Assembly (NCBI GenBank): GCA_963514005.1
Contig: OY740812.1
Coordinates: 30,380,001-30,444,000 of the forward strand
DNA from: Raja brachyura
Lineage: Eukaryota
Reading direction: 5' to 3'
Length of the DNA: 64,000 nt
Numbering within the stretch: position 1 is the first letter of the stretch; each line of letters begins with the position of its first letter. Shown here piece after piece: positions 27,109-59,945 of this stretch. A program made the translations under genes and the position numbers. The notes beneath the pieces were generated by a model, which did no database searches, was not told the DNA's origin, and was given only the letters and a program-made list of their open reading frames with translations.

Positions 27109-27400
27109 CTTAACAGAAAGGAAAAAAAATTAAAACCAGCATTTTATATTTAAGAAAAAAACATCCGAGTAGATAAAAGGCTTGAGTAAATATATGAAAA
27201 ATTAATATTCTGAGGTTCTACAAAAGCATTTACTCATTAAAACACGTGTTCCATTGCGTTTTACTTGCATTAAACTGGTGACAGCAAGTAATGGTGCAAA
27301 ATGTTCAGTGAAAAAGCCATTGTGGTGTGCACAAGATGAGTACTTGGTGTGCACAAGATAGTACTCATGAAGGAAGGACATTAAAACAAAGTAATCTTAC

Positions 27401-27550: not shown

Positions 27551-27779
27551 CTGGAATTAGAGAGACAAGATCTAATTTCTCATTTGAAAACATTTTTGTT
27601 CACCATGGTCTATGGTTCTGGTTCTAAGCCAAGCATCTATTTTGTCATAATATCTATTGTAAATCTTCAGCAACAAATATTTAATCCCCAAAATGAATTA
27701 TCTGATAACAGCTCAGGGGATTCAGATTACCCGTTTAATTTTCACATCAGATGATTGATCTCCATCTGCATTCCTGCTG

Positions 27780-29339: not shown

Positions 29340-31000
29340 GGGACCAAAAAATGCTGGGACCTGATGGTCTGCATCACAGGGTACTTAAGGAAGTGGCTCC
29401 AGAAATCATTGATGCATTGGTGATAATTTTCCAACGTTCTATAGACTTAGGATAAGCTCCTGTGGATTGGAGGGTAACTAATGTTATCCCACTTTTTAAG
29501 AAAGGCAGGAGAGAGAAAATAGGGAATTATAGACCAGTTAGCCTGACATCGGTGATGTGGAAGATGCTGGAGTCAATTATAAAAGACGAAAAAACCGCAC
29601 ATTTGGATAGCAGTAACAGGTCCAAGTCAGCATGGATTTACGAAGGATAATAAAATGCTTGACTAATCTTCTGGAATTGTTTGAAGATGTAACTAGGAAA
29701 ATGGGCAAGGTAGAGCCAGTGGATGTAGTGTACCTGAACTTTCAGAAAGCATTCGATAAGGTCCCACATAGGAGATTAGTGGGCAAAATTAGGGCACATG
29801 GTATTGGGGGTGGAGTGCTGACATGGATAGAAAATTGGTTGGCAGACAGGAAACAGAGAGTGGGGATTAACGGATCCCTTTCAGAAGGGCAGGCATGGAC
29901 TAGTGGGGTACCGCAAAGCTCGGTGCTGGGATCTCAGCTATTTACAATTGACATCAATGATTTCGATGAACGGATTCAAAGTAACATTAGCAAATTTGCA
30001 GATGACACAAAGCTGGGTGGCAGTGTGAACTGTGAGCAGGATGCTATGAGCATGCAGGGTGACTTGGACAGGTTGGGGGAGTGGGCGGATGCATGGCAGA
30101 TTACGTTTAATGCTGAGAAATGTGAGGTTATCCACTTTGGTAGCAAAAACAGGAAGGTATATTACTATCTAAATGGCATCAAGTTGGGAAAAGGGGAAGC
30201 ACAGCGGGATCTGGGGGTCCTTGTACATCAGTCTATGAAAGTAAGCATGCAGGTGCAGCAGGCAGTGAAGAAAGCAAATGGCATGTTGGCCTTTATAACA
30301 AGAGGAGTAGAGCATAGGAGCAAAGAGGTCCTTCTGCTTCTAGGTTGTGAGACCTAGTGAGGAAGGGTCTCGACCCGAAACGTCGCCTAGAGTCTGAAGA
30401 AGGGTCTCGACCCGAAACGTCGCCTATCTCCTTCGCTCCTTAGATGCTGCTGCACCCGCTGAGTTTCTCCAGCTTTTTGTGTAACCCTAGTGAGACCATA
30501 CCTGGAGTATCGTGTGCAGCTTTGGCCCCCTAATTTGAGGAAGAACATTCTTGCTATTGAGGGAGTGCAGCGTAGGTTTATAAGGTTAATTCTCTGGATG
30601 GCGGGACTGTCCAATGCTGAGAGGATGAAGCAGCTAGCTTGTACACTCTGGAGTTTAGAAGAACGAGAAAGGATCTTGCTGAAACATATAAGATTGTTAA
30701 GGGTTTGCACACGCTGGAGGCAGGAACTATGTTCCCAATGTTGAGGGAGTCCAGACCAGGGGCCACAGTTTAAGAATAAGGGGCAAGCCATTTCAAACGG
30801 AGATGAGGAAACATTTTTTCTCACAGAGAGTTGTGACTGTGGAATTCTCTGCCTCAGAGGGCGGTGGAGGCAGGTTCTCTGGTTGCTTTCAAGAGCGAGC
30901 TAGATAGGGAAAGGCAGGAAAGGGGTACTGCTTGGGGATGATCACACTGAATGGCGATGCTGGCTCGAAGGGCTAAATGGCCTACTGCACCTATTGTCTA
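29340..31000 (+). mobile_element. CR1 ORF2 RT half + tail, interrupted at 30362-30485
   Basis: NYRPVSLTS, FQKAFDKV, SGVPQSSVLG, KFADDTKL, RPYLEY. Confidence 0.93.
30394..30426 (+). ncRNA. Minimal type I hammerhead-ribozyme-like motif (Penelope tail)
   Basis: CTGAAGA-A-GGGT CTCG ACCC-GAAAC-GTC; both conserved core boxes flank a hairpin; stems I and III are very short, activity untested. Confidence 0.65.
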
Positions 31001-31377
31001 AAAAGTGCTCAGAATGTCATCAGCAAAGCTTATTCCTTGCTATTACAAATAAACCATATAGGAAGACTGTCATGGCTTGTCAAACAATGGCAGAATGTAA
31101 GCGAGGTCTGCATAAAAACTAGTTCACATCACAATGTCTTAGACAGAAAATTGTGAAGCGATATACCTCGAGAAATAAAATTATTAATAAAGTACAAGTC
31201 CTCAAGTTCAAAATATCAAGAATACTGAAAAAGCAAAAAAATTGAAATGAAAGAATTTTTAACGACAAAAATGTAAAAAGTATAATTTGGCTTGAAAATT
31301 ACTTAATATATTTCTGAACACAATTTAATGGCATTTCTGTTGCTTGATTTACAGCATAGAACTTAATCTTGATTTAC

Positions 31378-31506
31378 CAGGGTAGTGCTGATTGCTGGGA
31401 CTTTCTCCACCCAGGGTACAGTAGTCACACTGGTGCACCTTGAATGCTCTGTATCACAAGTGGTATTTTCAGGACAGCAATGCAACATATCGGAACAACA
31501 AACTGC
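31378..31506 (-). CDS. grn: Progranulin coding exon 2 (C-half of module 1)
   Basis: tttctctgttgcag|AVCCSDMLHCCPENTTCDTEHSRCTSVTTVPWVEKVPAISTTL|gtaaat; 129 nt, phase 0-0; not in the ORF track, translated by hand. Confidence 0.92.
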
Positions 31507-31759
31507 CTGCAACAGAGAAATATGCAATCTTGAGTGGAAAATACAAAACCTTATGCTTTGCAGACAGTCTTAACAAGCAAGCGATTCAATCCATATTAAA
31601 TTATTTTGACTATAAAATGACACCAGGAATTTATATACCTGCAGGAATACAGAGTCTATATTTCAAATAATAATCGCCCCAAACTAAACCCACATACTCT
31701 CCCTTCACTTTAATTAGCTGAAGTAGATTTGCAGTCCACTTCTAACCTTTCCCTGTAGC

Positions 31760-33700
31760 TAATCATTCTGGTAAGCCTCCTTTGCACCCTTTACAAAGCC
31801 TCCACATCATTCTTGTTTCGGTCCGACCAGAACTACATGCAATTCTCAAATGTAGCTAATCAAAGTCCGAAAAAGCTACATCATGATATCCTGACACACT
31901 CAATGCCTTGACTAACGAAGGGATGCAAATTATATGCCTTCTTTATCACTATCTACTTGTGATGCCACTTTCAGGGAGTTATGGACTTGGACTCCAAGAT
32001 CCCCATTACATAAAATGCAACACTTCACATTTGCTCTGAATAAAATCTCCATTAGCCATTTCTCTGCCTATTTTTAATACCTAAAATCTGCAGTATATGC
32101 CGCTGTATAATTTGACAGCCTTCCAAGTCCACAACTCCAGCAATCTTAGTGTCATCTGCAAACTTACTAACCAATTTATCTAATCTTACTAACCAATTTA
32201 TCTATGTCGGAGTCGTTTATATATATTAGAAATAGAGGTCCCTGCCGATCCCCATGGGACATCACTGACCGCAGACCTCCAGCCACAATATTGTCCTTCC
32301 ACCACAACCTTCTATCAGTAAGCCAATAATGAATCCATACCACCAAAACACTCACTGTTAAACCTGTGCACCTGAATCTTTTAGATCAGCCTACCATGGA
32401 GGATGACCAAATGAAGCCAACATCCAAAATCCTACCATCATCAATCACCTTCATCACCTCTTTTAAAAAAAACTCAAAGAAGTTAGTAAGACACAATCTG
32501 CCATGTACAAAGCTATGCTAACTATCCCCAATTAAATTATTCTCTTCTATATGGGAGTAGTGTACTCCACACCGATCTCACTGTCCTCCATCTTGGTAAA
32601 AACAGCTGCAAAGTACTAATTTAGTACCCCGTCTATGTCCCCTGACTCCAAGCACAAATTCCATCCTTTATCCTGGAGCTTGTACTGTTTACCGTAGTTT
32701 TTTTAATGTAAAGTATAAAAAAAAACATGGGATTTTCTTTAATCTGATTTTCCAAAGCCATTTTATGGCCCCAATCGCCTGAATGTTTCCTCCTTGCTTT
32801 ATATTCCTCAACGGCTGTCTGATTTTATCTTTTAAAAACTTGTTTATGCTTTCTCTTTTGACCAAATTTACGACCTCTTTGGTTATCCAATTTTCCTTTA
32901 CTTTGACATACTAATCACTCTCCTTACTGGAACTTGTCACTTTTGATCAATTGCCCTTTAAACACTTCCCACACGTAACTTTCTGCTCAATAACGTTGCA
33001 ATTTACCTTAATTCAGTACTTTCTCACTCGGTCCAGCCTTGTCCCTATTCCAAATAATCTTAACAATTATGGAGTTGTGGTCACTGTTCCCAAAATGCTC
33101 TTCCACTGAAACACCAGTTACCTGGCCAGGTGTGTTTCCTCAACACACGTCTGAAGAAGGGTCACGACCCGAAACATCACACCATTCCTTCTCTCCAGAG
33201 ATGCTGCTTGTCCCGCTGAGTTGCTCCAGCATTTTGTGTCTCCCAAAACGTAATGTACAGGACTATCCACATACTGCTTCAAGAAACCTCTTGGATACAC
33301 CTAACAAATTCTGCCCCATCCAAGTCTTTGGAACCGAGCAAGACCCAGTGGACATAGATGAAGTTAGGTCACCAACTAAGATAGCCCTGCTCCTTTGGTA
33401 TCTTTCAGTAATCCCTCTACATATCTATTTCCCATTGGTTATTGGGAAGCCTATAGTACAATCCCATTTGAGTGCTTGCACTTTTCTTATTTTTGAGCCA
33501 CTATCATCTCAGCAGATAAACCCTCCACCGTGTCCTTTGAGTGTACCATGATATTCTTCATGGTCAGTGAAGCAGCTCCTCCATCTCTTTTCCCTCCCTC
33601 TCTATCACATCTGCAATATCAAAACCCTGGAAACATTGAGCTGTCAGTCACATCCCTCATGCAACAAAGTTTCCAGAATGGCCACAACGTCAGTCCTAAG
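31760..33700 (-). mobile_element. Old, heavily decayed CR1
   Basis: gtgtcatctgcaaacttact (reverse of SKFADDT); ttgtggtcactgttccc (reverse of GNSDHN). Confidence 0.7.
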
Positions 33701-34978
33701 CACTGATCTACGCTAAGTTAATCTGTTCTTCCCCCCCCCCCCTCCGAATACTCCTTAAATTATATGAAATAATTCAAATATGATTAATTAACTATCAAAC
33801 TTTTCAAAGCACCTGTTGTGCTTTGGGGAGCGATGGTAGACGTAGCATTTTGAGTTGAGTTTAGTTTATTGTCACGTGTACAGTGAAAAGCAAAAGCTTT
33901 TTTCAGCGGAAAGACAATACATGATTACAATCAAGCTATCTACAGTGTGCAGAAACATGATAAAGGGGAATAACACACCTGGTTTCTTTCTGGGTCATTG
34001 GTTTTGAGGAACAAAGCCTCTTCTGGCAGAAAAAAAAAGCAATGGACTAAAACAGTGCCCTCATGTGCCAGACCAAAAAGGGTTTAAGCTTCAATTGTGC
34101 TTACTGAAGCTTTTCAAAGTTGATTTAACTTTGTTATTAGATAGTAGGGAGAGGTAGTAAGGAATTTAAAAAAAATTGATAAGCTATGGTTCTGGTGGCA
34201 TAGTAAAAAACTGAATGCTAAATTCAACTTTAAAAACACGACCTGAACCCAGTTCTCATAAGTGATGACACACTAATTGGCAAGTCATATCTGGCAGAGA
34301 CAGTTTTCAACTCTCACACATCCACATTTTACAAATATTTGAAAAACACCCATGAACAAAGGAGGAAAGTACACCATTATTGGGATATTTGGGAACTAAA
34401 AACAACTTAGAAATGTACATGGAAGGAAATGACATTTGAAAAATGTACATATCAGTTATTTAAGCATTCTAATTGTTAGGTCACTTTCTGGTTGGAGGCA
34501 AACACCGATCTGAAAGCTGCAGACATAGATGAGCAAATTGTTGACAAGGTCAATTTACTGCAAGCTTTACGAATGAGCAAAAAGGATGCAGGTTGGATTA
34601 CAACCCGAATGTTTTACATTTGGATATACAAAGATGCTTATTCTTAAAACTGACTTGTGGGCAAAGAAAAAGACGAGGGGAATTAAAGCAAATATGTAAA
34701 CTCAAGATAAAATAATAAACTGGCATTATTAAGTTTATTCACATTAAGGCAAAAAGGTGGATTTTCTTCCCTCTGAACCAATAAACTATTGAGTGGAGTT
34801 GAGATTAACAAATGACCTAGTATCAACTACCCTTAGAACCGTTCGAAAATTCTACCAGTTTCTTTAAAGTAAACTTTAAAGGAATTTGTAGAAAATTACT
34901 ACTAGCAATTCAACCCGAGTGGCAAAGCCTTAAGAGTGACTAGAAGCAATTTATTAAAGAGCAACAAGTGGAACGTAC

Positions 34979-35122
34979 TTTGGATAAAGGGCAGCAGGCA
35001 TATGTTCCATCTGATTTCTTACAGCAGGTGCTGTTATCGCCGCAGTCGTGCCCATCTGGACAAATGACTGCTGAAGCCAGGCCAGCAACCAGGCACAGGA
35101 GCAGAAACTTTGGAATCATCAT
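34979..35122 (-). CDS. grn: Progranulin coding exon 1 (signal peptide + N-half of module 1)
   Basis: ttttag|ATG start; MMIPKFLLLCLVAGLASA (hydrophobic signal) VICPDGHDCGDNSTCCKKSDGTYACCPLSK|gtacgt; 144 nt, phase 0; granulin C-C-CC-CC pattern. Confidence 0.93.
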
Positions 35123-35214
35123 CTAAAACAGAACAGAAAAGTGCACAAATTGAGTGAATAATGCCTTTATCTGCTTATACATAAACTGGATACTTCGTAT
35201 TGAAAATATTTTCT

Positions 35215-35712
35215 TTTTTTTCCTTTTTAAAACATTTTTGTTAGAAGCAATTGTACAAAGAAAATGATCGACGCAACAGTTATACAATTTTCGTACTGGT
35301 TCAGTTTTAACATTTTATAAACTAATAACTAGATAGTGAAAAAAAGGAAAAAAGGGAAAGAAAGAAGAAAAAAGAGAAAGAAAAAAATGTTTAAAGAAAA
35401 AAAAGAAAAAAAACCCCTCAGAACTAAAAGGTGTAAAAGAAGCGGAGATATATCCAACTACCCTTCCATACGCCCGCTCACCCGACCCTACCATCGGTTT
35501 TGAGTTTGTGTTCAACCATTATGTTGTTGAAGAAATTCAATAAAAGGAGACAATATTTTTGAAAATTGATCTGTTTTGTCAGTCAAGACAAACCTTATTT
35601 TTTCTAGATGTAGCGTCTCAATCATTTATGTGATCCATATTTTCACTGTGGGAACTGTTATCTTTTTCCAGAATTTAAGTATAAGATTTTTCGCAGTTAT
35701 TAAACCGTAGTC
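35215..35712 (-). mobile_element. L1/Tx1-like 3' fragment
   Basis: Reverse strand reads KNLILKFWK..ETLHLEK, paralleling ORF 14602..14784; T-rich end near 35215. Confidence 0.7.
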
Positions 35713-36619
35713 AGGGAAAAAAGCTTTCTCGAATGAGTATTATGAAACTGCGCAAACTTAATCACGTTGGTTGAGCGAATTTATTTAAGGCAGGAAAGTA
35801 TAATTTAGGAGCATTCACCTTCTCTAAAAAGGTACCTTTGACGACTCTCTACAATACTGAATAAAACTACTTCCCCCTTCATTCTACTCAAAACTGAACA
35901 GCTTTATGGATCTTTGCTCAATTCAGAAATACCCTAGTTAATATCAATTCAAATCCATTTATTCAACAGTTCAATGAAGATGCAGTTCAGGAACAATGGG
36001 CAATATTGACTATGGAAACAAGGGGAGAGTCTAGGTTTCCCCCTGCTCAGAGATGCCCATTGGAAACGTGTTTTATAAGAACAAATTTAGGCCCAGCTGA
36101 AATGTCATATTATCACAGTTGCTGTTGAGGCTTTACACAAAATGTGATGAATCATTGGGATAATGAATGCAGATATACTAGAAAACACCAGGCTGCTGCA
36201 AAATCAATTATTTATCAAAACTAGCTGAAGAGCTTAAGTCATTGCATTGTGTTTTTTTCAAAGGGAAACATCATTTTTGGAAGATGTATATCAAAAGAAA
36301 ACCTAGGTCAATACATTAAATTCCACAATACCAAAACACATACAAGAGATACTAAAAGTTTAACATGCCGACACCACAGCATTTGACTTAAGGAAGCAAT
36401 TCTTTTGCCTTAATAGTTTGTTGCTCAATGAGATTAAGCATTGACCTGCAGCATGATTCAGAACTGCATTTGGCATTGGCTTGTAAAATTAGCTATCAAA
36501 ATGGGGGCTGTAAGCAAGCTCACAGTGGAGTCAAGTCAAAACATTAAGGCTCTTCCCTTTGATTATCGAGTTGTAAGCTTCTCATGCTCGAAGTCGGTGG
36601 GAGATCTGTTAGATCTGTA

Positions 36620-37495
36620 ACCCTGCCAGCAGCGTGTCAGTTTTTTTCTACTTAGTTTTGTTTTTTTTGTGCGTTTAAATGTATGTTTTTAATGTTTCTT
36701 TGTGTGTCTTGTGTGGGTGGTAAGGGGGAAACCACTTCAGTCGCCTCCTCCATGGAGAGGCGACTTTTTCCATGACGTCTCCCACGTGGCCTAACATCGA
36801 GGATTGGTGCGGCCTTTCCCAGAGACGCGCCGGGGCTTCAGACGTGGGCGCAGCGTGGACTCTCATCGTGGAGCGGGCGAGCACACGCTGGGGCTCCCCA
36901 GAGGGCAGCGCTCCATTCGCTGGCCCGCTGCAGCCTGAAGCCAGGGTCTGCAGAACTCCAACTGGTGACATCCTGGGCTTGGGATCCCTCGTTGGGGACC
37001 CCGGAGAAGAGCTCCGACAGCCGGCCCGCGGCCAACTTCTATTGCGGGCGCAGCGGGGACTTACCACCCTGAGCGGGGTCCCTCGCCGGGGATCCCTGGA
37101 GGGGAGCTTCGACCGCCGGCACTGCGGTCTGTGGTGCATCTGGCCGCGGCGCGGCGGGAACTTTAAATCTTCGACCGCCGGCCTACACCAACCTGAAGCC
37201 GCAGTCTCCGGTGGGGAGGCACCGATTCAGGACTAACCTGGACTTTTACCTTGTCTACTCATCTGGACGCCCGCAGCGACGGCTGAGGAGGGTTGAGGTC
37301 CCGACCACGGGGGAAAGTGGAGGAGGACTGGCCAAATTCTCTGCCTTCCACCACAGTGATGAATGCTGTGGTTGATGTTTATGTTAAATATTTATTGCGT
37401 TTTTGTGTGTTCTTTTTCATTGTACCGCTGCTGGCAAATTAATTTCACTTGCACTTTATGTGCAAGTGACGAATAAAACTGATTGATTGATTGAT
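36620..37495 (+). mobile_element. Non-autonomous CpG-rich retroposon-like repeat
   Basis: GC/CpG-rich core; ends gtgacgaataaaac(tgat)n; shares ggcctaacatcgagga and gccttcca..gatgtttatgttaa blocks with 27780-28425. Confidence 0.6.
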
Positions 37496-40336
37496 GGTGG
37501 ACATGTACAAGATCCGGGAAGAACATTTAAACAGCCTATAATGCACATCTTAAAGCTTTGAGAGAGTTCTGTATCAACCTGCGCAGCAACAATACGATAC
37601 TTAGTATGATTGTTTCTTATATATTGGATTGTCACTGAATTGTATGAAAAAAAAGAATTTCACTGTACACATGACAAATAAGTACCATTGAACCATTGAA
37701 AAGGATTTTGAATTTTAAGATCAAATTTCCCTTTTGAAGGGGACAGTGAATTTTATTTCTAGCCGTTGCTTTCCAGATCACTCAATCCTCCTATATCCCT
37801 AATTCTTTTGCACTAAAGCCACAAATTGGTATTTTTTAGTCAAAAGGAAAATTCAATCAAGGGCTTTAATGACAAACCAAAAATATTATGACACTTCCAC
37901 AAAATAATGTACATTTTGTACATAGCAAGTCACGACAAATAGCAATGCAATAACCAGTGGACTGAGGAATACACATTGCCAAAGACATCAGATAGATCAC
38001 ACCTTTGCTCTTTTTATTTTTGGGATCTGAGGGTCATCTGAGGACAACATTTATTGCCCATCTCTAACCGCACATTACATGGAAGTAATTTTTGAGCCAT
38101 TGTATTATGATATTGGATAGGGAGTTCTAGGATTTAGACCCAACAGTGAAGGACTGGCAATGCATTTGCAAATCAAGATATGACTTGAGACCAGAATCTG
38201 CAGATGGTGATATTTCTCAGGCAACTGCTGCCCTTAACTTTCAGATGGCAAATAAAAATCCACAGGTTTAGGAAGAGATGCAGAAGCCAAGACAAGTAAC
38301 AGCCTTAAGTTGTATATGAAGGAATGAATACCTGGTGGCATACGAGTGCAAATCAAATAGGCCACGTAGCGAGCAGGGAGATGGGATTTTGAGGGAGAGA
38401 AAGGCAGAGATGTATCGAATATAATTGCACATGCAGAGATGTATCGAATATCAAGTCCAGTAAAACTTGATTAAAGAATATACCGAGGGTCTCCAATGAG
38501 GTAGATGGTAGGTCTGGACCATTCTCTAGTTGGTGATAGGAAGGTTCAGTTGCCTGATAACAGCTGGGAAGAAACTGTCCGAGTCTGGAGGTGTGTGTTT
38601 TCACACTTCTGTACCTCTTGGCTGATGGGCGAGGGGAGAAGAGGAAGTGTCTGGGGTGAGACTCGTCCTAGATTATACGAGTGGCCTTGCCAAGGCAGCA
38701 TAAAGTATAGATGGAGTCAATAGAAGGGAGGTTGGTTTCTCGAATGGACGTCAAGACAAGTCACTCAGATCAAGATACCCAGTCACTGACCTGCTGTGAT
38801 AACGATGGTATTTGTGACTGGTCCCAGTTGGGTTTGTAGTTATTGGCAACACATGGGCTAGAAACAACTATTGAAGTTAAATAAAATGGAATTACAATGG
38901 TTGAGGATAACTCGTGGAATAAGCAGTCAGGTTAGCAAGCATTAATGCATAGCAAAAATATATCAAAATGAGGAAATATATTATGGGACAGATGAATCAA
39001 CCATGGTTAACCAAGGAAAGTATTGACTAAAAAGGAAAACAGGAGGCAAAATAAATCAGTAAATCCAAAGATGGAGACAATTCAAAATTGAGAAGGAGGA
39101 TGAAAGAAAATGAACACAAGCAGCAAGATGGAAGAACAATGACTATTTTAGGCCAAAGATCCTTTAGACTTTTATACGAAACTCTTTGCCAGAGTAGATC
39201 AATGGGAACCAATGCCCCGTATTCGGCTTTCCAGAAGACATGCAGCAAGGTGTCTCAGAAGGTTAGGAAACCTAAAGGATTTTATTAGAGGCAAAATACT
39301 GGCATGGGTAGAGGAATGACTAATGGGCAGGAAGCAGCAAGTACGGATAGGGAGGGACATTTTCCAGTTGGCAGTTCAAAGCTATTAGTACAGCATTACT
39401 ACAGTTAAAAATGTAGAATATTGAAGGTAACTGCAACCCTGCTCATTATGGAAGAATAATGAAATTAACCTAATTTAAAAGGAGCAGAGATCATTTTTGC
39501 GTTAAAAGCTAAAGTACTGGGGAACCGACACAAAGGAAATGAGGCATGGGACAGATCGTAGTAAATGGCAGGGCAGGCACGAGGGAGAGAGCAGCCTAGT
39601 TATGCTTCTGTTGTTAAATGCTGCAGGAGAATCTTAGACTAGACACTAAATGCTGAGTGAATGATACATCTCATGAAGCTAAGCCATAACAAGAGAGCAT
39701 GGTCTCAGAACAAGGGGTGAACCATTTAAGACCAAGGTGACTTGGAATGAGTGTTTGATAGATTTCTAATCAACAAGAGAATCAGAGGTTATGAGCGAAG
39801 AACAAAAGAGTGATATTGAATATGGAATCGGCCATGATCCTATTAATGGTAGGGCAAGCTCAAAGGGCCGAATGGCCTAATATTCCCACATCTTGTCTCT
39901 AAACAATGCCACTTGTTATTTTATGTTCAACCTACAGCAGGTATAACCTTGTCTTAAATGCAATCTTTCAGATGAGACCATGCAGCAACCCAGCATGCAC
40001 TGTAATAAAATGTCTAGAAGTTTAGTCCTGGAACTCCAGCGTGGAACTTCAAACCATATTCTATAACTCTGGTATCAGTGCTTTAACATCCAAGCAACGG
40101 AGGACACCACTGCTCATTTCTGGCAAAAGCCTGCAACCCTTCTACTTGTGTGCTGCCCAGATTTGGACCGAGACCCAAATTCTGCAGCTGATTTAATTCA
40201 CCGTTAATTTTTGTGCCTGATTATACCAAACATCTACTGTTCATTTAAAAAAAAAAAAAAATTCAAAAATTATGCATGACACTCTAAACTGTACTATTTA
40301 ATTACGATTCCTAACACATTCCCTTCGAGAATTTCA

Positions 40337-40645
40337 GGGCAGCACAGTGGTGCAGCAGAGAGTTGCTGCATTATAGTCCCAGAGAACAGGGCTTGAACCT
40401 GACTGTTGGTACTATCTTCACAGAGTTTGTATGTTCCCCCTGTGACCACGTGGGTTTTCTCCGGGTGCTCCGGTTTCATCACAGTCCAAAGACATACAGG
40501 TTTGTAAGTTAATTGGTTTCGGCAAAAATTGTAAAATTGTCCCTAGTGTATAGGATACTGTTAGTGGGCGGAATGTTTGCTGGTCGACGCGGACTCGGTG
40601 TGTCGAAGGGCTTTTTTCCACATTGTATCAGCAAAGCAAAAGTCT
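40337..40645 (+). mobile_element. tRNA-derived SINE, HE1/V-SINE type
   Basis: gggcagcacagtggtgcagc head; core gtgggttttctccgggtgctccggtttc..ccaaagac. Confidence 0.8.
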
Positions 40646-43199
40646 AAAATATTAATCTAGATAATTCTCAGTTTTCTGCATTAAATTCTATCTAACATGC
40701 ATAGTCACATTAGTTTACCCACTTGGTGTCAGCTGCTCTCGGGTTGGGTGATAATCATGGTCAGGTCAAACTGTGATGCAGAGACTGTAGTTAAGCTTAT
40801 TGTTTGTTAACTTGCATCAGAAACTATTCCAGTAGTTTTAATTCACCTCAACTGAGAAAGTTTTTAGACACAGTTCACAGCAGTTTCCATAACATTCAAG
40901 TTCTCTATAACATCAGTTAGTTTTGTTTCCAGTACTGCTGAGGCAATAGAGCAGAATGAGAATTGGTTTGCAAGGGAGTTTCCACATTATGCAAGAACAC
41001 AACATAAGTTGGCAGGGGGGTTACACAAAAAGCTGGAGAAACTCAGCGGGTGCAGCAGCATCTAAGGAGTGAAGGAGATAGGCGAGGAGATAAGTTGGCA
41101 GGGACCCAGCTCTTCATGCCTGTTCGACCATTTTAAATTGTCATGGCTGATCTATGCTGGCCTTAACTCGTCTGTACAAATTCCCATACGTAATATTGAA
41201 AGAGGATTTAACAGCTATCTCAAAGTTAAATATTTTTTAATGATCTAGCCTTCACCATCCACTGCGTCAGAGAATACGACCCTCATGAAATGTGTGCACC
41301 TCCATTTTAAATGACTTGTCTTCAGGTCAATTTATATTTCAGAGAGGCTGACTGCACAAACTTTAAACTTTCATCACTACATCAAAAGCGGCAAAGGCAC
41401 AGAACTGTAGCTTTACTTCAAAAGGATTTCATTCAACTTTCATAAAGCTGATCATAGTCAAAGTGCTAAAAGGTGCTTAGTAAATAAAAGTCCTTTCTTC
41501 CTTGTGGCGTCTACCAGGGACCAATCCTGCCAATTAACTCATCTACATGTTGTTCTTTAGCAAAATCTAAAATTTTGCACACTCACTGATTACATCCAAT
41601 TACACCTCACTTTCTTTGCTCATGTCTGAATCTTATTCCAGTGACATAACAATATTTTGAACTTGTATACCTTTAAGAACATGATGATGGTATGACTTTG
41701 TTCTTGTACCCAAAGATACTAGCGCTCCTCTAGTATCTTTGGTGGTACCTGCCATTCATTGGTGACTGGCTTCAATAAAGATAAACTTAAGGTTATCAAA
41801 TATTGGTTGCTTATGCCAATCATTATCCTAAAATGTATTAACTCATAATGCTGTTCATTATCTCCTTTCTGGCTAAGCAATGCAGAGTTGTTTGAAAAAA
41901 TCTTATCCCCATTTCAAAGTCATTCCATGGCCTCGACCTCCCGCTAACCTAAACTATTCTAGTCCTACATTAATTAATTATAAAAAATGAAATAAAGTGC
42001 TAGAGTAACTCAGCAGGTCAGACAGCATCTCTGGAGAACATTGACAGGGAGACATTTTGTGTCAGGACCATTCTTCAGAGCCAACCAGAAACATCACCTA
42101 TCCGCGTTCTACAGAGATGCTGCCTGACCCACTGAGTTACTCCAGCACTTTGACATTTTTTGTAAACTAGCATCCGCAGTCCATTATTTCTACATTCATT
42201 TACTCTATCTGTGCCCCTCCAATTCTGTTCTCCAAACATCATGGAACTTGACATCCTCCATCAACATCAGCCGACATCAATTGTCAATGCCCTAAAATGT
42301 TTAGTTACCTTTTTGACTAAGCTGCCCCAAAATCTCATGTAATTTACCCTCAACTTGTTTTTAAATCATAGCTTGAGGAAACAGCAACTACTGACCAGGC
42401 ACTAATTCTAACCCAGATCAGGATAGACTGCTTAAAGTACAGAGCCAGCCTGGCACAGCACAGCCCAACCTAACCAATGATTCAACAGAAAATACACTCA
42501 ACACAAGCCAGATACATTTAGTCAGGTTCCTCATTTCCCCTTTTTCTGAGGTCCAATCGATTTTAAAAAAAGCTTTTAGAATTATATGTCCTTTTTGCTT
42601 ACTAAATCCATTTAATGTGGACAGAAATGTCAAGGATTGCATTTACAAACATAGATAAATCAAATATTAATACCCAAGAACACTGATGGAAAAGCCAATA
42701 TAATTCAAGACCTTGAGCAAAAATCAATGTTACTTTTGTTAGCAATTTAAAAATGGTGCTACTTATCCACTTCATATGGTTATGCCCAAAAAAATGTTTG
42801 GTCTCCAGGGTAAAAGTGAAGGTACTCTGAAGATATGCACTTTTTTGTTTAAACATAATTACTTCCACCTGCACTTTCCAATTCACAAAGGACTATATTT
42901 AGACCATCAATTCATAAGATCATGTGATAGGAGCAGATTTAGGCCATTCGGCCCATCAAGTCTAGTCTGCCATTCAATTCTGGCTGAACTATCTCTCCTT
43001 CCTAACCCCATTCTCCTTCCTTCTCCCCATATCCTCTGATACATGTCCTAATTAAATTCAACACAACACTTTAACAGCCATCAATTTCAATTTTTATTAC
43101 TTAAAAATATTAACTTCGATGACATGATAAATCCTTTGATGACGAGAGAAATTGAGGCTCTGGTCAGGAAAAAGGCTTGAGATGCCAATTGGCAGCTGA

Positions 43200-45060
43200 C
43201 ACGAAGGAATTACAGGGACTGAGGAGAGTACTTAAGGAAATGAGGGTAAAAAGGAGGCAGGAGATAGCTCTGACAGATAATATTAAGAATAATCCAAAGA
43301 GAATTTATGTAAATTAAGGAAAAGAGGGAACTTATAGCCCCCGCAGAAATCAAAGTAGTCATCTGTGTGTGGAGCTACAGGAGATGGTCAAGATCTCCAA
43401 TGAGTATTTCCCCTTTGCTTTTACTGCGGAGAAAGACATGATGACTGGGGAACTTTGGACGGTTAATGGAAGAGTCTCAAGGACAATTTGATTTGCAGTC
43501 GAGGAGATGCTTGACATCCTAAGGTGTATGAAGGCAGATAAATCTTATGGCCCGATCAGATATATCCAAGGACACTGTGGGAAGCTAAAGAAATTGCAGG
43601 CACCCGGGCTGAGATATACAAATCATCGTTGTGCATGGGTGCAGTGCCAGAAGACTGGAGGGTGTCTAATGCTGTGTCTCTATTTAGGAAAGGCTGTAAG
43701 GAAAAGCCTGGGAACTATACATCAGTGAGCTTCACATCTGTGCATTTGGGCTGATTATGGATAGTCAGCATGGTTTTGTACATGAGAGATTGTATCTTAC
43801 GAATCTGATTGAGTTTTGTTTTAAGTAACCAAATAGGTTGTTGATAAAGTAGACGAGCAAGGTTTCTGATAAGATTCTTGGTGGTTAGTGGCTGTGGAAA
43901 GTCAGATTGCATGAGATACAGCGAGAGCTAGCGAACTGGCGCCTATTTCCTTCGCTCTACAGATGCTGCCTCACCCGCTAAGTTTCTCCAGCATTTTTGT
44001 CTACCTTCAATTTTCCAGCATCTGTAGTTCCTTCTTAAACAACTGGATAGAGAATTGGCTTCATGGAAGAATGCAGAGAGTGATGGTGGAAGGTTGTTTT
44101 AGAACTGGAGCCCCATGCCTAGTGGTGTGGCTCAAGGATCAGTGCTCGGCCCATTGCTGGTTGTGGTTTATGTCAAAAATTTGGATGAGAATGTAGAATG
44201 CACGATTAATAAGCTTGAAGATTGCATTAAAGAGGGTAGTATTGCAGATAGCAAAGATGGTTATCAAATATTATAGCAGGATCGGTTGGGCAAGTGGGCT
44301 GAGGAATAAGAGTGAGGTGATGCATTTTGGGAAGCCAAAACAAGGCAGGAACTTCACAGTGAAGAGCATTGTAGAACAAAGGGAGTACAGGTACAGTGTT
44401 CCTTGAAAGTGGCATCACAGGTAGATAGGATGGTCAAGAAGGCTAACAGTACATTAGCCTTCATCAGACAGGGTATATTAAGTTTAGAGGCTGTGATGTT
44501 ATGTTACAGTTGTAGAAGACGTTGGCGATGCTGCATTTGGAATGGTGTTCAGTTTTGGTCACCCTGTTACAGGAAGGATGTTGTTAAGCTAGAAAGGGTG
44601 CGGAAACAATTTACAAGGATGTTGCCGTGACTCGAGGGCTTGAGCTATGGGGAAGAGGCTGGGCAAGCCAGAACTTTATTCTTTGAAGAGCAAAGCTGAG
44701 CAAGAATGTTATAGAGGCACCCAAGATCATGAGGGGAACAGATTTGGTAAAATAGTGGAATCAAGGACGTAGGTGGAAGTGAATATAGGAAATATTTAAT
44801 AGAAACCAGAGGGGCAACTTTTACCACAGTATATGGAACATGGTATATGGAATATGGAATATGGTGGGTATATGGAACAAGTTGCCATTAAAAGTAGGTG
44901 TGACAGGTACATTTAAAACACATTGGGACAGCTACATGGACAGGAAAGGTTTAGAGGGATATGGGACAAATGCAGGCTGCTTGCGTAGATGGGGGGTCTT
45001 GGTTGGCATGGGCAGGTTGGGTCGAATTGCTTATTTCCATGGTGTTGATTTTGTGACTAT
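43200..45060 (+). mobile_element. Decayed CR1 ORF2 + tail
   Basis: KADKSYGP, WIENWL, QFWSPCYRKDVVKLERVRKQFTRMLP. Confidence 0.85.
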
Positions 45061-45845
45061 GACACTTAAATCAATCCCAGTTTTTATTAATGCTCTATCT
45101 TCATCCCCACAATTTGAAGCTACAAATATCCCAAACGCAGGTATGCCATAAACTGCCTTCTATTCGCACGTTTGTGTTCCATGTTTGTGTACTATAATAT
45201 CCAAGACTCCACTCATTTTGTTTGGATTTTTTCTTTCGTCTCTATTCTAATAAATCCATGGAGAACAAATGCTTTTTAGTCTTCCATGTTTACTGCCTGA
45301 CATCCTGCATTTTCTGTAAAAATTGCCTTCTGATACTCCCTTAAATACATTAGCTCAAGAGTCCAAATCAAATTATTTTTCCTACTTACAGCTTTATTAA
45401 TGATAGCACAAGTTCAAATAAAACGTACTTTTTTTTTTAAAACACAAAGTCATGAAGTTAGCAATCAGGTTGTACACCAAAATCCTACTTCCTTAAAATG
45501 TCAAATTGGCAAGAATAGACATCAGCTATAAAAAAACTAGTTTCTGTTAATTTTGAGGTTTACTGCCTGAATGAGATTTGAAAGTCTGAAGCATATTGAT
45601 TACTTAAAGGAGTCAAAATAGTCTGAAAGCCAAGTCACATTTTCCACATGGTGAAATAGAAACACTAGAGTATTCTCTTGTTTTCAACATTGCTGAACAC
45701 CTGTAGTAAAATAAGACTAAACGATCACTACATACTAATTAAGTGATGGCAGAAACTCACAGAAGGTCTACTCTGATACTGACGACATTGAAACCGAAAT
45801 TAGGACATTCAAAAGGCAGGCCATCCAGCTTGTCCCAAAGCCTTA

Positions 45846-46505
45846 TGGGCCTGTCCCACTTAGACGATTTTTCAGGCGACTGCAGGAGACTCTGCAGTCG
45901 CCACATTTGCCGGGGAATCGCCTTCGTGGTTGTGAGGAGTTCCCGCATTCTGGAAACCAGTTGCGGCCTCATTATGGTCGCCAGAATGAAGCCGCCATGG
46001 AGAGTAGCGAGAATTCTCGTGTCGTAGGTGGGTCGCCAGCAGGTCCTAGTGGGTTGCCAGGAGGTCGAAGGTTCGTGTAGGTTGTAGCCGGTGGTGACCG
46101 GTGGATTTAATTGGGTCATTGGGAAATAAAAACATAAACTATAGTTTTCAGAACCGAGGATAACCGGCCGGTAATGTTAATGTCTGACGAGCTTCACATC
46201 CGTGTATCTGTGGCTTATTAAAAGTGGTCTCCACTCCTTCTGCCCACCCCATCTCTTTGAAAGGACTTGCGTGATCCTTCCCGTACACAGTGCTTTGACC
46301 GTCTTAATTGGAGCGCCAACCTTCTTGTTCATCACGGTGTGTGTCTGTATCGCATTGGTTTGCACCATCTGCATTTCACTCAGACAGCGTTCCCCTGCTT
46401 GCCCTGTCCCCTGCCATGAGTGAGTGGATTTTTTTTTTTTTAAGGGGACTGCCGGTGATTTGAGTCGCCAGCAGTCACCTGAAAAATCAAAGTGGGACAC
46501 GCCAC
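45846..46505. mobile_element. Harbinger-type MITE (~660 bp)
   Basis: tta|tgggcctgtcccacttagacgatttttcaggcgactgc ... gcagtcacctgaaaaatcaaagtgggacacgccac|tta. Confidence 0.8.
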
Positions 46506-47632
46506 TTAGTATATATAAAAAACATTAGTATATAACTTTCAATTCACATACCGAGATACCCGAGGCTCAGTAATGGGCCATAAATCACTGTAGCTCCATG
46601 ATACATACCAACTAAACTCAAAGGATTGTCGATTCTACCACTTAATGATGATCAAACTGCTTTATCACTTAAACTCAGTATTCAGTTTTAATAATCTCCA
46701 ACATTAGTTATAAAGATCTATTTTTAGCATCCAATTCACGTCCATTTTCTGTTTTTCTAACAAAATCAGCATCAAATTAAATATTCTAGACAAGTTTCGC
46801 AGTTCAGAATCTGTACTCAGGTAGTGAGGTTCCAATCACGTCTCATGTGTCCTAGACTCTTATACACACGATAATGTACCAGAAAGCTTTTCACAAATTC
46901 CACCTATCAAAATGTTAAAAAAAAACAAGGTAACATTGGTCTAAATTGGGACAGGCAGCATCTCGGGAGAGAAGAAATGGGCGACGTTTCAGGTCGAAGC
47001 CCTGCCTCAGAATGTCAGGGGAGAGATTTGGAACCTTCGTGTGAAAAGGACAGATCAAAGCAGACGATGCTCTAAGAAATGTAGAATGGTTGATTTTGGT
47101 CAAGGGGAAGGTGACAAGGCACACAAACAGTAAATTAATCAGGAAGGCAGTGAAACTAGTCAGAGAATTAAGGTGGGAGGGACAGAGAGGGGGGGGGAGC
47201 AAAGGTTACAGATGAATTAATATTAATTAATAAGTTGCTCAGGCGAAATATGAGCGTAATATTCCAATAGCAAAAACAATTCAACCCTCCCAACCTATTC
47301 AAATTATATACCCAGTCTCTATACAAATCATCTGGTTGCAGTCCACCTTTCAAACTTCAATCCAAAATGTTGTCTTTATTCCAACTTGTCTAAATTCATC
47401 CATCACCCTATTGCTCAATTTACACCAGTAATGCCTACAATTCAAAACTGCTTTCATAGCCTGTTCCATCTCCAAACTTATTCAGCTCTGTAATGCTCAG
47501 ATCTCTGCAACCCTTCCATCTCTCTCTCCATCTCCAGAGAGGTTTATACCTCTCTCCATCGGCTGCCACGCCCCACCACAATAAAACAAATGTGAACAAT
47601 ACATTAGAATTTTTTAAAAACCTGCAAATGCT

Positions 47633-48799
47633 GAAACTGCAGCCGCTGCTTTATGAAATAGACACCAACTCAGCAGGTCAGGCAGCATCTCTGGAGAACA
47701 TGACGACATTTGGGGTTGGGGTTCCTTCAGACTAAAGATGGGTCCGAACCCGAAATGTTAGCTATCCATGTTCTCCAGAAATGCTGCCTCACCCACTAAG
47801 TTATTGTCTAGCATTGAAAACACAACAGGTAAAAGGTGCATTAATGTTTCAAAAATGTGCGATTTAGTTTAGAAGAGGGACTTGATGGCTACGGTTGTTA
47901 TATTGGGCACAAGATCCAAAGCAAATTTAACAGGCAAAAAATAGAAGCCTGGATGTAGCGACCAGGAACTACCTAATCTCCTGGGAAAAAAAGTGAGGAA
48001 CTGGAAAGTAAATAGTTAAAATCAGAGGGAAGTGGAGGGGAATTTTATTTTCATTTCAGTGGGACTCTGAACTACTTCTTGAAAAGTGGTGGCAGAGGGG
48101 AGTAACACTCGCCACATTTTAAAAAGTAACTGAATGTGCACTGAAAGTGCTATTATTTTACAGTTGTTAAGGATTTGAGATGTTGGAAACGTCCAAAGCT
48201 TTGTTTTCAAAATAGCCTTGCATCTGACCCACACAATACCACAGTTCTATGAAAGCTCTGGAATTCTCACTCCTTTTCATACAGGCACTCCTTCAAATCT
48301 GCTTCTTTGATTAAACGTTTGGCCACCTATCCTAAGCTCTTTACGTGGCTCATTGCTAAATTTGACAAGATATTCATGTTGTCATTTCTTTTATCCACAC
48401 ATGCTACCTGCTATATCCAACATTTTTATTTTCAACAGCATTTTTCTTTTTTATCCAACCTAATTTAACACGGAATATTAAAACATGAGAAACAATTGAC
48501 TGTGAGAGCTACTATTTTACTGCTGTGCATAAAGGTTCGACGATATTCCCCAAATTACTACAGCGACTCCGCTTCAACGTACTTTACTGCTGGCCACATT
48601 AGAACATCGTGAAGAACGTCAAAATATTAAATCTCCAAAATGCCTAAACAACTTGGACAAAATGTAGACTGCAAGGACACTTTAAAACCAATCATTAGGT
48701 ATCAGACATTCTGACAAAATACCATCAAGCTCAATATGGGTGGCACAGCCGGTAGCCTTGCTGAACTCACTACACCAGAGACACCGGTTCGATTCTGAC
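47633..48799 (+). repeat. Copy A of a ~1.17-kb direct duplication
   Basis: Colinear with 61763-62927 (e.g. aaatagaagcctggatgtagcgaccaggaactacctaatctcctg in both). Confidence 0.92.
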
Positions 48800-49072
48800 G
48801 CCATTTAGAACAGAGATGACGAAAAACCTTTTCATCCAGAGAGTTGTGAATTTGTGGAATTCTCGGCCTCAGAAGGCACTGGAGGCCAATTCACTGGATG
48901 CTTTTAAAAGAGAGTTGGATGGAGCTTTTAGGGCTAGTGGAATCAAGGGATATGGGGAGAAGGCAGGAACGGGGCACTGATTTTGACTGATCAGCCATGA
49001 TCAAATTGAATGGCGGAGCTGGCTCGAAGGGCTGAATGGCCCAGTCCTGCACCTATACTCTATGTTACTATG
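48800..49072 (+). mobile_element. CR1 3' tail
   Basis: gagagttgtgaatttgtggaattctc...cctgcacctat. Confidence 0.85.
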
Positions 49073-50124
49073 ACAGGATCACTGAAAGCAAATGCCTGTA
49101 CAAGAGAGATAAGAGACTGTGCAATTTTCTTTTGCAGATTGGAAAATTATTTAGCACAGTAATGACTTGGACTGCATGCTTGACTGTGAAGATTCTACAT
49201 TAAAAAAAAGTCCCCACTCTAAATTTCTGTTGATATTTGCACACACACACACAAGTGGGAACTCCTCATGACCATGAAAGCCACTACCCGGCAAACACCC
49301 ACGAACATGTGGCGGCCATGTGACGACCGTACAGTCTCCTGCAGTCGCCTAAAAAGTCACCTAAGTGGGACAGGTCCATTAGATTTATCATTTCAGTTGT
49401 GTGACCTTGCATTAGAACTGGAAGTAACTAAAGATAAACTGGTGAGATCATAGAAAGGACAACCTCCTGTAATGTAAACATTAGCCCATCAGGTGTGGAC
49501 TTGGTTCATGCAAGAGTGGCACAAGCAGTTACCCCTTCCCCACATTCTCCCCACAAACATGAACATTCCTTTTCCAGTTCCCTTTTGAAAGTTACTAGAA
49601 CTAGAAAAGGGTAGCAGAGAGAGGTGCACTAGGTGAAAAGCTTCAGAAGAATGAGGATATATTTGCTTTATCTTTATGCTTTGCTTTTTGCTTTATGAAC
49701 AATTTGCTTGTAGCGGCTCAAGCTTGGGGGCAAAGTGCATGTTCCAACTTGCCTGAAACATGCACCAGCTTGGAGTGTTGTCTAAAACAATCTCATAAAA
49801 CAGATGTAGACATGAAAAGATGGAGTAACTCAGTGGGACAGGCAGCATCTCTGGAGAGAATGAATGGGTGACATTTCAGGTCGAGACCCTTCTTCAGACC
49901 TGTCATAAAATAGAATCTTCCTGCTTAAATATCTCTTGAAAAAAAGTTATGTTTGTGATAGGGAAGATGGCTGCAAACTCTGAGTGACCAAAGGGTGATA
50001 GCTGAAAACAAAAATCTTTAAGGGAGAGCACAGAAAATCTAGAATAAAAATCCTGGATTGCCAATTATGCAAAAACGATCAACTCATCGTTATTCAGAAG
50101 ATAAGGTGCCATTTATCAAGCTTA

Positions 50125-52808: not shown

Positions 52809-53554
52809 GTTTTATTAAAGATGTTCATTCTCATCAAAATTAGACCAATAGCAAAACTAATGAATTTCAAGCAATGAGTTATATACCCAAATTTAGCAAG
52901 CTATTATATCAAAACCATTCTACAGTCAATGATACACCATAACAGCCTTCAAATTAGATATAACAGCATAATCCCAATAAACCCAAACTTAAAGGAAGTG
53001 AAGCAAGTAAATGCAACAGGGACATGGACACAAAAGCTGGAGAAGTTCTGCAGGTCAGGCAGCATCTCTGCAGAAAAGGAATAGGTGACGTATTGGGTCG
53101 AGACCCTTCTTCAGACCCAACCCGAAACATCACATTCTCTTCTCCAGAGATGCTGTCTGACCCGTTGAGGTACTCCAGCATTTTGCGTCTATCTTTGGTT
53201 CAATCCAGCATCTGCAGTTCCTTCCGACACAAAACGTAACAGGACAATGCATTGCAACTAGATTTGCTGACAGGTCAGAAAATAATGTTGTTGGTAATTC
53301 AGTTTTATTTCAAGAACAGCAAAATAAAAAGTGACAGCAAAAAATCTGTAGATATTGAATGAAACAAAAATTGACATAAAACTTCATAAGTTTAAAGATT
53401 GGAACTAGACAAATTGAAATTAATGCACATGAACCGTTCCATATCGTGAATTTGTCAGTTATGGAATTCAGCACTTTATATTACTGCATTGCTAGCATGA
53501 CAGACCATTTCAACATTAGGTAATTCAGGCTTTCTAATTCACACCGCAGATGAT

Positions 53555-59469: not shown

Positions 59470-59945
59470 CGCAAAAAGCTGGAGTAACTCAGCGGGATAA
59501 ACGGCATATCTGGAGAGGAAGAATGGGTGATGTTTCGGGTCGAGACCCTTCTCCAGAGTGCTCAGGGATAAGGAAGACCAGAGATATCGGGGATGATATG
59601 GAGAGATAAAGAACAATGAATGAAAAATATGCAAAAAAGTAACAAAGATAAAGGAAACAAGCCATTGTTAGCTGTTTGTTAGGTGAAAAAAAGCTGTGCG
59701 ACTTGGGTGGGAGAGGAATAGAGAGAGAGGGAATGCTGGGGCTACCTGAAGTGAGATAAATCAATATTCATACCACTGGGCCATAAGCTGCCCAAGCAAA
59801 ATATGAGATGCTGTTCCTTCAATTTGCAATGAGGCTCACTCTGACAATCGAGGAGATCTAGGACAGAAAAGTCTGCATGGGAAGGGGAAGGGGAATTGAA
59901 GTGTTTAGCAACCGGGAGATCAGGTAGGTTCAGGCGGACTGAGCG
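59470..59945 (-). mobile_element. Penelope-like 3' fragment (GIY-YIG end + tail)
   Basis: DLPVAKHFNSPS..KLKEQHLIFCLGSLWPSGMNID; tail homologous to 25188-25540. Confidence 0.85.

What the first reader, a model, noticed from the sequence alone, without database searches (positions are those of the whole stretch)
30362..49902. Mobile 70-125 bp ribozyme-tail insertions whose 5' ends cluster at a hammerhead core
Seen: at least five very short insertions of the Penelope tail. They are 30362-30485 (+, TSD cctagtgag), ~33149-33240 (+, TSD only approximate), 41018-41089 (-, TSD ataagttggcaggg), 43940-44040 (+, TSD aactgg) and 49805-49902 (-, TSD tcataaaa(c/t)aga). Their 5' ends fall just before, inside or just after CTGAAGA-A-GGGTCTCGACCC-GAAACGTC. 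Known: Penelope-like elements carry minimal type I hammerheads (CUGANGA..GAAA..UH), and retrozymes are non-autonomous ribozyme-bearing retroelements. Inference: this behaves like a Pol III-independent mini-retrozyme/SINE family mobilised by Penelope RT in this lineage. It is my best candidate for an undescribed system in the window.
Basis: partly seen in the sequence, partly recalled or inferred. Interest (0 to 1): 0.8.

Follow-up and report, generated by a model that had tools for sequence, protein, structure and literature searches.

The report
Penelope run-off stubs mark transcription start
These short inserts are end pieces of a known jumping gene (a Penelope-like element) that recur tens of thousands of times in this genome, and their shared starting point lies just before a small ribozyme-like motif rather than at its predicted cut site, so it likely marks where the element's capped RNA begins and the inserts are likely dead-end by-products, not a new self-spreading family.

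Summary
The inserts are real; four of five have the reported target duplications. They are 3' ends of Neptune-type Penelope elements (75,185 exact copies of one young 26-mer). 5' ends do cluster, but at the upstream edge of the hammerhead motif: 51 of 119 young copies end within 6 nt (-5..+1 from CUGA), only 2 at the predicted cut site. Copies ending at -3/-2 carry an extra G (22 of 34), as full-length L1 copies do from the mRNA cap. Short and long copies interleave on a tree, so no short-only family is seen. Rare chimeras show a template that ran on into the ORF start. Best reading (0.65): reverse transcription starts internally about 95 or 130 nt into the Penelope mRNA and runs off its capped 5' end. 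The start site is inferred, not mapped; a splice-acceptor explanation remains. SINE/retrozyme reading: not supported, though a rare 311-bp ORF-less tandem unit occurs at two loci. This scan noted the upstream-edge clustering before on other genomes; the extra G, ORF-start chimeras and counts are tested here.

The parts
30353..30361 (+). 5' copy of 9-bp target duplication of insert 1 (3' copy 30486-30494); the target is a CR1/L2-like LINE copy (label recalled)
   Evidence: paralogues at 12880-12990 and 19230-19330 hold the motif once
30362..30389 (+). Partial second round of copying, +6..+33 (likely template jump after run-off)
30390..30390 (+). Extra G before position -3 (likely copy of the RNA cap)
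30391..30485 (+). Young Penelope end piece -3..+92; minimal hammerhead-like core 30394-30421, predicted cut 30421/30422
   Evidence: 94 of 95 identical to 25284-25190
33149..33240 (+). Older-type end piece starting at -2; TSD not confirmed
41018..41089 (-). Young end piece starting at +27 plus 4 extra nt; exact 14-bp TSD (41004-41017, 41090-41103)
43940..44040 (+). End piece starting at +28 with the ~34-nt tail; exact 6-bp TSD
49805..49902 (-). Older-type end piece starting at -2 (49899), extra G at 49900; 12-bp TSD with one mismatch
25188..26407 (-). 1.2-kb 5'-truncated, broken copy of the parent Penelope-like element: end of ORF, CX4CX2C linker, GIY-YIG domain, pseudo-LTR; 12-bp TSD
25282..25330 (-). 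Pyrimidine tract, weak TATA-like word near -31, and CCAGT: inferred initiator/start site (A at 25284) or, as rival, splice acceptor
53028..53222 (.). Head-to-head pair, one arm with tail; similar pairs at 41992-42152, 47667-47814, 61796-61935
59470..59945 (-). Older, longer truncated Penelope copy

Best explanation
The inserts are short copies of the end module of Neptune-type Penelope elements, and they likely form when the element's own reverse transcriptase starts inside the first ~95 or ~130 nt of the capped Penelope mRNA and runs off its 5' end just upstream of the hammerhead motif. Shown: identity to the parent's end, two fixed 3' ends (~+94 and ~+130), target duplications, pile-up at -5..+1, extra G at -3/-2 ends, chimeras with ORF-start sequence. 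Inferred: (1) Pol II starts at or near the A of CCAGT/TCAGT in the pseudo-LTR; (2) the protein binds the ORF start and primes at +94 or +130 from a nick in target DNA, as shown in vitro for the anole element; (3) on the 5' copy of the module the cDNA ends at the cap, copied as G; (4) the end is joined intact (extra G, no microhomology), or trimmed a few nt to a microhomology (-1, +1), or joined to a second cDNA primed from the other strand (head-to-head pair with one tail), or jumps back onto the RNA near +185..+284; (5) long insertions come from the downstream module of tandem sources or from read-through RNA. The 70-125-bp copies lack the upstream promoter region and the ORF-start region, so they would mostly be dead on arrival. 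Ribozyme cleavage would play no part in setting their ends.
For: Hazard of a 5' end 9.6% per nt at -5..+1 against 0.13% at -11..-100 and 0.5% at +13..+26 (119 young copies). Base before the end in 84 simple short copies of all types: G 11 of 16 at -3 (p 0.001), 11 of 18 at -2 (p 0.007), 2 of 12 at +1 (genome G 22%). Genome-wide G vs A/T before AGTCTG 4,404 vs 5,073 (share 0.46, expected 0.29); G vs C/T before GTCTG 7,553 vs 6,245 (0.55, expected 0.31). TSD then exactly one extra base: 5 of 9 TSD calls in 30 G loci, 0 of 10 in 30 A/T loci. All 5 TSD-called ends at -3 have extra bases; 5 of 7 at -1/+1 overlap the TSD by 1-3 nt. Full-length L1 insertions show the same extra G without microhomology (PMC11702581, passage). 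Of 30 loci with tail joined to ORF start, 24 have the ORF-start piece ending at a junction, 22 of them at +185..+284, in all but one joined to another end piece. All 15 head-to-head pairings found (14 loci) have exactly one tailed arm. Internal initiation at two sites, need for downstream ORF RNA and dispensability of ribozyme cleavage are shown in vitro in PMC11167929. TATA plus initiator-like words in pseudo-LTRs are noted in PMC3846280 (passage).
Against: No start site was mapped: only assembled contigs were available. Ends are spread (-7..+12), and ends at -4 show no G excess (2 of 19). About 11 of 30 G loci and about 8 of 30 A/T loci (by eye) are inverted junctions where microhomology can supply the base, so genome-wide ratios are not clean. 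The feature conserved upstream across families is a pyrimidine tract plus CAG, the TATA-like word only in some; in Drosophila Penelope an intron ends at this position and the start site is about 120 nt further upstream (PMC4209133, PMC2377424). 35 of 119 copies pass the site, which needs tandem or read-through templates that I did not demonstrate. An extra G could be untemplated addition at any RNA end. The in vitro model comes from a Poseidon element, not a Neptune one. The 90-nt tree has little power to reveal a small short-only subfamily.
Confidence: 0.65

Rival explanations
1. The pyrimidine tract plus CAG is a 3' splice site, as in Drosophila Penelope; 5' ends arise from a processed or recapped RNA end there, or from a protein block (splicing factors) that stops the RT.
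For: Pyrimidine tract and CAGT are kept in long copies of unrelated upstream sequence (C-4 92%, A-3 93%, G-2 92%, T-1 95% of 73). The Drosophila intron ends at helix I (PMC4209133).
Against: Ends keep AG or G of the acceptor and add G, where spliced RNA would begin at -1 behind an exon; TSDs abut the element with no constant exon between; I saw no clear GT donor upstream in the pseudo-LTR (by eye).
Confidence: 0.16
2. Ordinary 5' truncation focused by RT stalling after the ribozyme hairpin or by the CAG-T-CTG micro-palindrome and microhomology joining.
For: A shoulder of ends at +2..+12 (18 of 119) and microhomology at -1/+1 ends; inverted junctions centre on the micro-palindrome.
Against: The peak is 5' of the hairpin, after it is copied; the region upstream has no predicted structure (0.0 kcal/mol); stalling does not predict G specifically at -3/-2; 33 of the 51 peak ends are simple, not inverted.
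Confidence: 0.1
3. A non-autonomous SINE/retrozyme family: short copies are themselves transcribed, self-cleave or circularise, and are mobilised in trans.
For: Very high copy number; 84 of 119 young copies end at or after -10; one ORF-less 311-bp unit occurs at two loci, once as a three-unit tandem with its own TSD.
Against: No short-only sequence type with more than 2 copies among the 14 commonest types; no clustering on the tree; ends at the cut site 2 vs 1.8 expected; purine before +29 only 341 vs 242 at control +31, and 9 of 20 such loci are variants of longer copies; the mobile-looking unit is larger and contains promoter region and ORF start, which the inserts lack.
Confidence: 0.06
4. 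Short and fold-back copies come from an antisense template or self-priming, as proposed for rotifer Penelope palindromes.
For: Head-to-head neighbours are the commonest adjacent arrangement (95 of 201 pairs under 400 bp apart); proposal in PMC3846280 (passage).
Against: Fixed 3' ends next to TSDs and the extra G on the sense 5' side fit a sense template; a self-primed mirror copy would not give arms that always differ by the tail (15 of 15).
Confidence: 0.03

Closest known systems
5'-truncated and inverted insertions of endonuclease-positive Penelope-like elements, Neptune type (PMC8557442, PMC3846280)
   Same: RT plus C-terminal GIY-YIG, CX2-5CxxC linker, pseudo-LTR with hammerhead motif, optional 30-40-bp tail on one arm, inverted 5' copy, solo pseudo-LTRs, TSDs or microhomology junctions.
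   Different: In the passages I read, truncation is described as variable and solo pseudo-LTRs are ascribed to recombination or deletion; a sharp 5' pile-up with a cap-like G is not described there.
Anole Poseidon element PAc, internal initiation of reverse transcription (PMC11167929)
   Same: Two RT start sites a tail-length apart; needs RNA downstream in the ORF start; both strands cut and extended; ribozyme cleavage dispensable.
   Different: Different clade; there the ORF starts inside the ribozyme, here the first ATG lies near +163; the main text does not discuss run-off stubs or map the start site.
Minimal type I hammerheads of metazoan PLEs (PMC4209133)
   Same: CUGANGA, extra nucleotide before helix II, G-C closing pair, GAAA, palindromic CG in place of helix III, GUC at the cut site; mostly found as single motifs attributed to truncated PLEs.
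   Different: Helix II is 4-5 bp (7-8 in Schistosoma) and helix I only 2 bp (as in Drosophila); if RNA starts at -3, only 3 nt precede the core. Activity untested.
Non-LTR retrozymes (PMC7229834; bioRxiv 10.64898/2026.07.22.740005)
   Same: Type I hammerhead, relation to PLE pseudo-LTRs, no coding capacity; the preprint already proposes PLE origin, includes one chondrichthyan and counts monomers.
   Different: Retrozymes are tandem units with a ribozyme in each, expressed as cleaved linear and circular RNA; these inserts are single 70-130-bp pieces whose ends ignore the cut site. Only the rare 311-bp tandem (L331) fits the layout.
Full-length L1 insertions with cap-derived G (PMC11702581)
   Same: Extra G and no microhomology at intact 5' ends; microhomology at trimmed ends.
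   Different: In L1 the RT starts at the RNA 3' end, so run-off gives the full element; here internal priming near the 5' end would give a ~100-bp stub.

Membership tests
EN+ Penelope-like element, Neptune/Nematis type (parent) | RT followed by GIY-YIG endonuclease | tested here: met
   RVT_1 E 1.3e-4 (below curated cut-off) in L052, GIY-YIG E 3.5e-5 (above cut-off) in the window copy
EN+ Penelope-like element, Neptune/Nematis type (parent) | CX2-5CxxC linker between RT and EN | tested here: met
   C-X4-C-X2-C; definition in PMC8557442
EN+ Penelope-like element, Neptune/Nematis type (parent) | Pseudo-LTR from partial tandem, 30-40-bp tail, inverted 5' copy | tested here: met
   L060, L051, L054; 3' ends peak at +90..96 and +127..131
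EN+ Penelope-like element, Neptune/Nematis type (parent) | RT phylogeny places it in Neptune rather than Nematis | not tested
   no reference PLE proteins fetched; Neptune preferred because PMC and preprint passages list Neptune and Poseidon in vertebrates
Minimal type I hammerhead | Core nucleotides, helix II, palindromic helix III remnant | tested here: met
   173 of 201 copies ungapped; helix II pairs 86-97% paired, no compensatory double changes beyond CpG decay
Minimal type I hammerhead | Helix I of 4-5 bp | tested here: not met
   only -1/+29 and -2/+30 can pair; predicted minimum-energy fold is not the hammerhead; no Rfam match
Minimal type I hammerhead | Self-cleavage as monomer, dimer or with protein | not testable with these tools
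   needs in vitro assay
Non-LTR retrozyme | Tandem units, at least two with complete ribozyme | tested here: not met
   five inserts are single units or one plus a partial; met only by L331 elsewhere
Non-LTR retrozyme | Unit ends or RNA defined by ribozyme cleavage; circular RNA | tested here: inconclusive
   DNA ends avoid the cut site; RNA not testable, contigs only
SINE (non-autonomous family with own masters) | Own subfamilies with private variants, separate from the autonomous partner | tested here: not met
   limited power on 90 nt and 157 copies
SINE (non-autonomous family with own masters) | Own internal promoter and discrete transcript | not testable with these tools
   no raw RNA reads offered

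The most novel reading that the evidence does not exclude
Most Penelope insertions in this genome are 'strong-stop' run-off products: internal priming near the 5' end of a capped mRNA that starts 3 nt before the hammerhead core. Tens of thousands of stubs thus record the start site, both priming sites, two-strand priming (one tail per pair) and the RNA stretch held by the protein (+185..+284); jumps back onto that stretch create promoter- and ribozyme-bearing ~190-330-bp units that can move again, i.e. the birth route of non-LTR retrozymes caught in the act (L331/L332).
Probability: 0.4. Interest if true: 0.65.

Novelty: new variant of a known kind. Interest (0 to 1): 0.42.

Why it matters
How Penelope-like elements transpose and what their hammerheads do are open questions. 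If the reading holds, genome sequence alone maps the start site and priming sites, gives in vivo support for the internal-initiation model shown in vitro for one element, explains why these elements need tandems to make long copies, shows that ribozyme-cut RNA is rarely the template, and offers a concrete route from pseudo-LTR to retrozyme-like tandems. It also warns against annotating these abundant stubs (about 3% of an 800-kb sample) as a SINE. It is not a new kind of element.

Tried and rejected
DNA search of the own genome with the 95-base end gave nothing because common words are skipped; pattern counts were used instead. Rfam: no hammerhead family hit; the RUF6-5 and miRNA hits are below gathering score and reflect palindromes. 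RNA evidence: all 24 runs were contigs, several only guessed to be RNA; four were laid and cannot show starts, strand or cleavage. Ribozyme cleavage as the source of ends: rejected. Back-splicing from the donor-like word at the ORF start: rejected, junctions are scattered over +185..+284. A universal TATA box: not held, present only in some families. First-pass 5' calls at -170..-228 were alignment breaks at poly-C runs and were redone by chaining. The 2017 RNA Biology paper on dimeric Penelope hammerheads is not held (recalled only). Supplement search of PMC11167929 found no hits in 3 text files; its figures were not seen. No related eukaryote genome is offered, so generality was not tested. 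Repbase and Dfam could not be searched.
Full report
Observation. All five inserts are present at the given coordinates. Four have the reported target duplications (9 bp exact, 14 bp exact, 6 bp exact, 12 bp with one mismatch); for 33149-33240 none was found. With the C of CTGAAGA as +1 and the predicted cut between +28 and +29, they start at +6 (with a second unit at -3 behind an extra G), -2, +27, +28 and -2 (behind an extra G). The window holds 25 HMM hits of this piece, among them a 1.2-kb truncated parent copy at 25188-26407 with its own 12-bp duplication.

The parent. The window lies in a 2.7-Gb genome; shark- or ray-like is my recollection from its repeats, not a tool result. Long copies encode an RT (weak Pfam RVT_1) and a GIY-YIG domain with a C-X4-C-X2-C linker, the mark of Neptune/Nematis elements (PMC8557442, passages). 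L060 has the textbook layout: partial pseudo-LTR, ~34-nt tail, ORF, pseudo-LTR, 15-bp duplication. The 28-mer core has 50,608 exact matches, a young-type 26-mer 75,185, the tail-to-ORF junction only 591.

Where 5' ends fall. I sampled 1.44 Mb: eight arbitrary 100-kb blocks, the window, and loci around the first 100 exact hits of an anchor at +49..+74, which lies downstream of the cut site. Of 156 anchors, 37 were dropped as other subtypes, leaving 119; ends 3' of +48 are invisible. 3' ends peak at +90..96 and +127..131. 5' ends: 1 at +30..48, 3 at +27..29, 8 at +13..26, 18 at +2..12, 51 at -5..+1, 3 at -6..-10, 4 at -11..-100, 31 further up. The hazard is 9.6% per nt in the peak and 0.13% just upstream. 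Two copies end at +28..30 against 1.8 expected. Genome-wide, a purine before +29 occurs 341 times and before control +31 242 times; 9 of 20 inspected +29 loci are variants of longer copies. So the ends cluster at the upstream edge of the motif, and at most a small excess lies at the cut site.

Extra G. Of 580 HMM hits, 201 had an intact start and 3' end (379 dropped); 84 were simple short copies. The base before the end is G in 11 of 16 at -3, 11 of 18 at -2, 2 of 12 at +1 and 2 of 19 at -4. Genome-wide shares are 0.46 (expected 0.29) at -3 and 0.55 (expected 0.31) at -2, though inverted junctions contribute to both classes (about 11 of 30 G and 8 of 30 A/T loci by eye). A duplication followed by exactly one extra base occurs in 5 of 9 called G loci and 0 of 10 A/T loci (six of the G loci overlap the sample above). 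Ends at -3 carry extra bases (5 of 5), ends at -1/+1 mostly overlap the duplication (5 of 7). Full-length L1 insertions show an extra G from the cap and little microhomology, truncated ones microhomology (PMC11702581, passage). The sequence CCAGT/TCAGT fits an initiator (consensus recalled).

What the template was. In 30 loci with tail joined to ORF start, 24 have the ORF-start piece ending at a junction; 22 end at +185..+284 (median of all 24: +226) and all but one are joined to another end piece, often starting at -3..-7; the other six are long or tandem copies or repeats of one locus. These fit an RT that finished a short cDNA and jumped back onto RNA downstream of its priming site, so that RNA included the ORF start. 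All 15 head-to-head pairings (14 loci) have exactly one tailed arm, as expected if the two nicked strands prime at the two sites; a tail on one inverted arm is described in PMC3846280 (passage). In the anole element RT starts at two internal sites, needs the first 172 nt of the ORF, extends both strands and does not need ribozyme cleavage (PMC11167929, parts 1-2 of 4 read).

A family of its own? The commonest sequence types each hold short and long copies (32/33, 7/5, 4/5, 2/7, 3/2). On a tree of 157 copies the short/long label needs 43 changes against 44.3 +/- 2.9 for 300 shuffles. The test is weak on 90 nt but gives no sign of short-only masters. One exception in kind lies outside the finding: L331 is a duplication-flanked insertion of three 311-bp units (-70..+241), and its junction plus two uncommon alleles (3 of 31 long copies each) recur at one other locus; the junction has 4 matches at 2 loci in the genome. 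That unit contains the upstream region and the ORF start, which the 70-125-bp inserts lack.

The ribozyme. Rfam does not detect it. It has the features of minimal PLE hammerheads in PMC4209133 (parts 1-2 of 4 read), with helix II 86-97% paired but no real covariation, a helix I of 2 bp and a predicted minimum-energy fold that is not the hammerhead. Activity is untested.

Against my reading. No start site could be mapped. The conserved upstream feature is a pyrimidine tract plus CAG, which is also a good splice acceptor, and the TATA-like word is not universal. In Drosophila Penelope an intron ends at helix I and transcription starts 46 nt before that 75-nt intron. Ends are spread over several bases; 35 of 119 pass the site. 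An extra G shows an RNA end better than it shows a cap (untemplated addition by RTs: PMC8857657, passages).

Literature. Read: bioRxiv 10.64898/2026.07.22.740005, parts 1-3 of 5, abstract to discussion (supplements not seen, and its chondrichthyan tables may list this family); passages of PMC6155905, PMC2377424, PMC8557442, PMC3846280, PMC7229834, PMC11702581, PMC11371274, PMC8857657. Ten searches found no paper describing a cap-marked 5' pile-up of Penelope stubs; subscription journals, Repbase and Dfam were not covered. Earlier notes of this scan on other genomes reached the same upstream-edge and RNA-start idea; my reading was entered before that look-up, and those notes are not independent evidence.

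Verdict. Real and non-random, but not a new SINE or retrozyme: a by-product class of a known element, with a likely undescribed and testable mechanistic signature. New variant of a known kind; interest 0.42.

Noticed in passing
L331 575-1500 (G000:C1:162.94 Mb) and L332/L291 (G000:C1:28.06 Mb): ORF-less 311-bp unit (-70..+241) with upstream region, hammerhead motif, both priming sites and ORF start; three tandem copies within one target duplication; same junction and two uncommon alleles at a second locus. Best retrozyme-like candidate seen.
   Followed up: partly
L284-L286, L300, L306: Single insertions that repeat one junction (+185/-6, +230/-98, +226/-182) two or more times, as from repeated jumps or a circular template.
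   Followed up: no
window 26866-27129 (-), 27365-27556 (-), 9679-10053 (-): Cysteine-rich exons resembling granulin repeats (label recalled, no search run); the repeats lie in introns of this host gene.
   Followed up: no
window 53554-56529 (+): Uninterrupted 991-codon frame with endonuclease- and RT-like motifs (Rex/L2-like LINE, label recalled), probably a young copy.
   Followed up: no
window 47635-48799 and 61764-62927: 1.16-kb direct repeat, 89% identical, each copy carrying a head-to-head Penelope pair: the pair was duplicated or carried along with flanking DNA.
   Followed up: no
window 30362, 41018, 43940; many loci: Many stubs sit inside copies of a CR1/L2-like LINE, some at the same few sites (flanks repeat between loci); possible target preference.
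   Followed up: no
L051-L060: Long young copies change frame at a poly-C run between RT and linker in most of the ten loci; may be assembly error, slippage or a real frameshift. The ten were picked with a query ending near that run.
   Followed up: no
C1 loci L161, L160, L150; window 30360-30367: Several ends read AG then GAAGAAGGG (start at +3 behind G), a possible minor start site or subtype.
   Followed up: no
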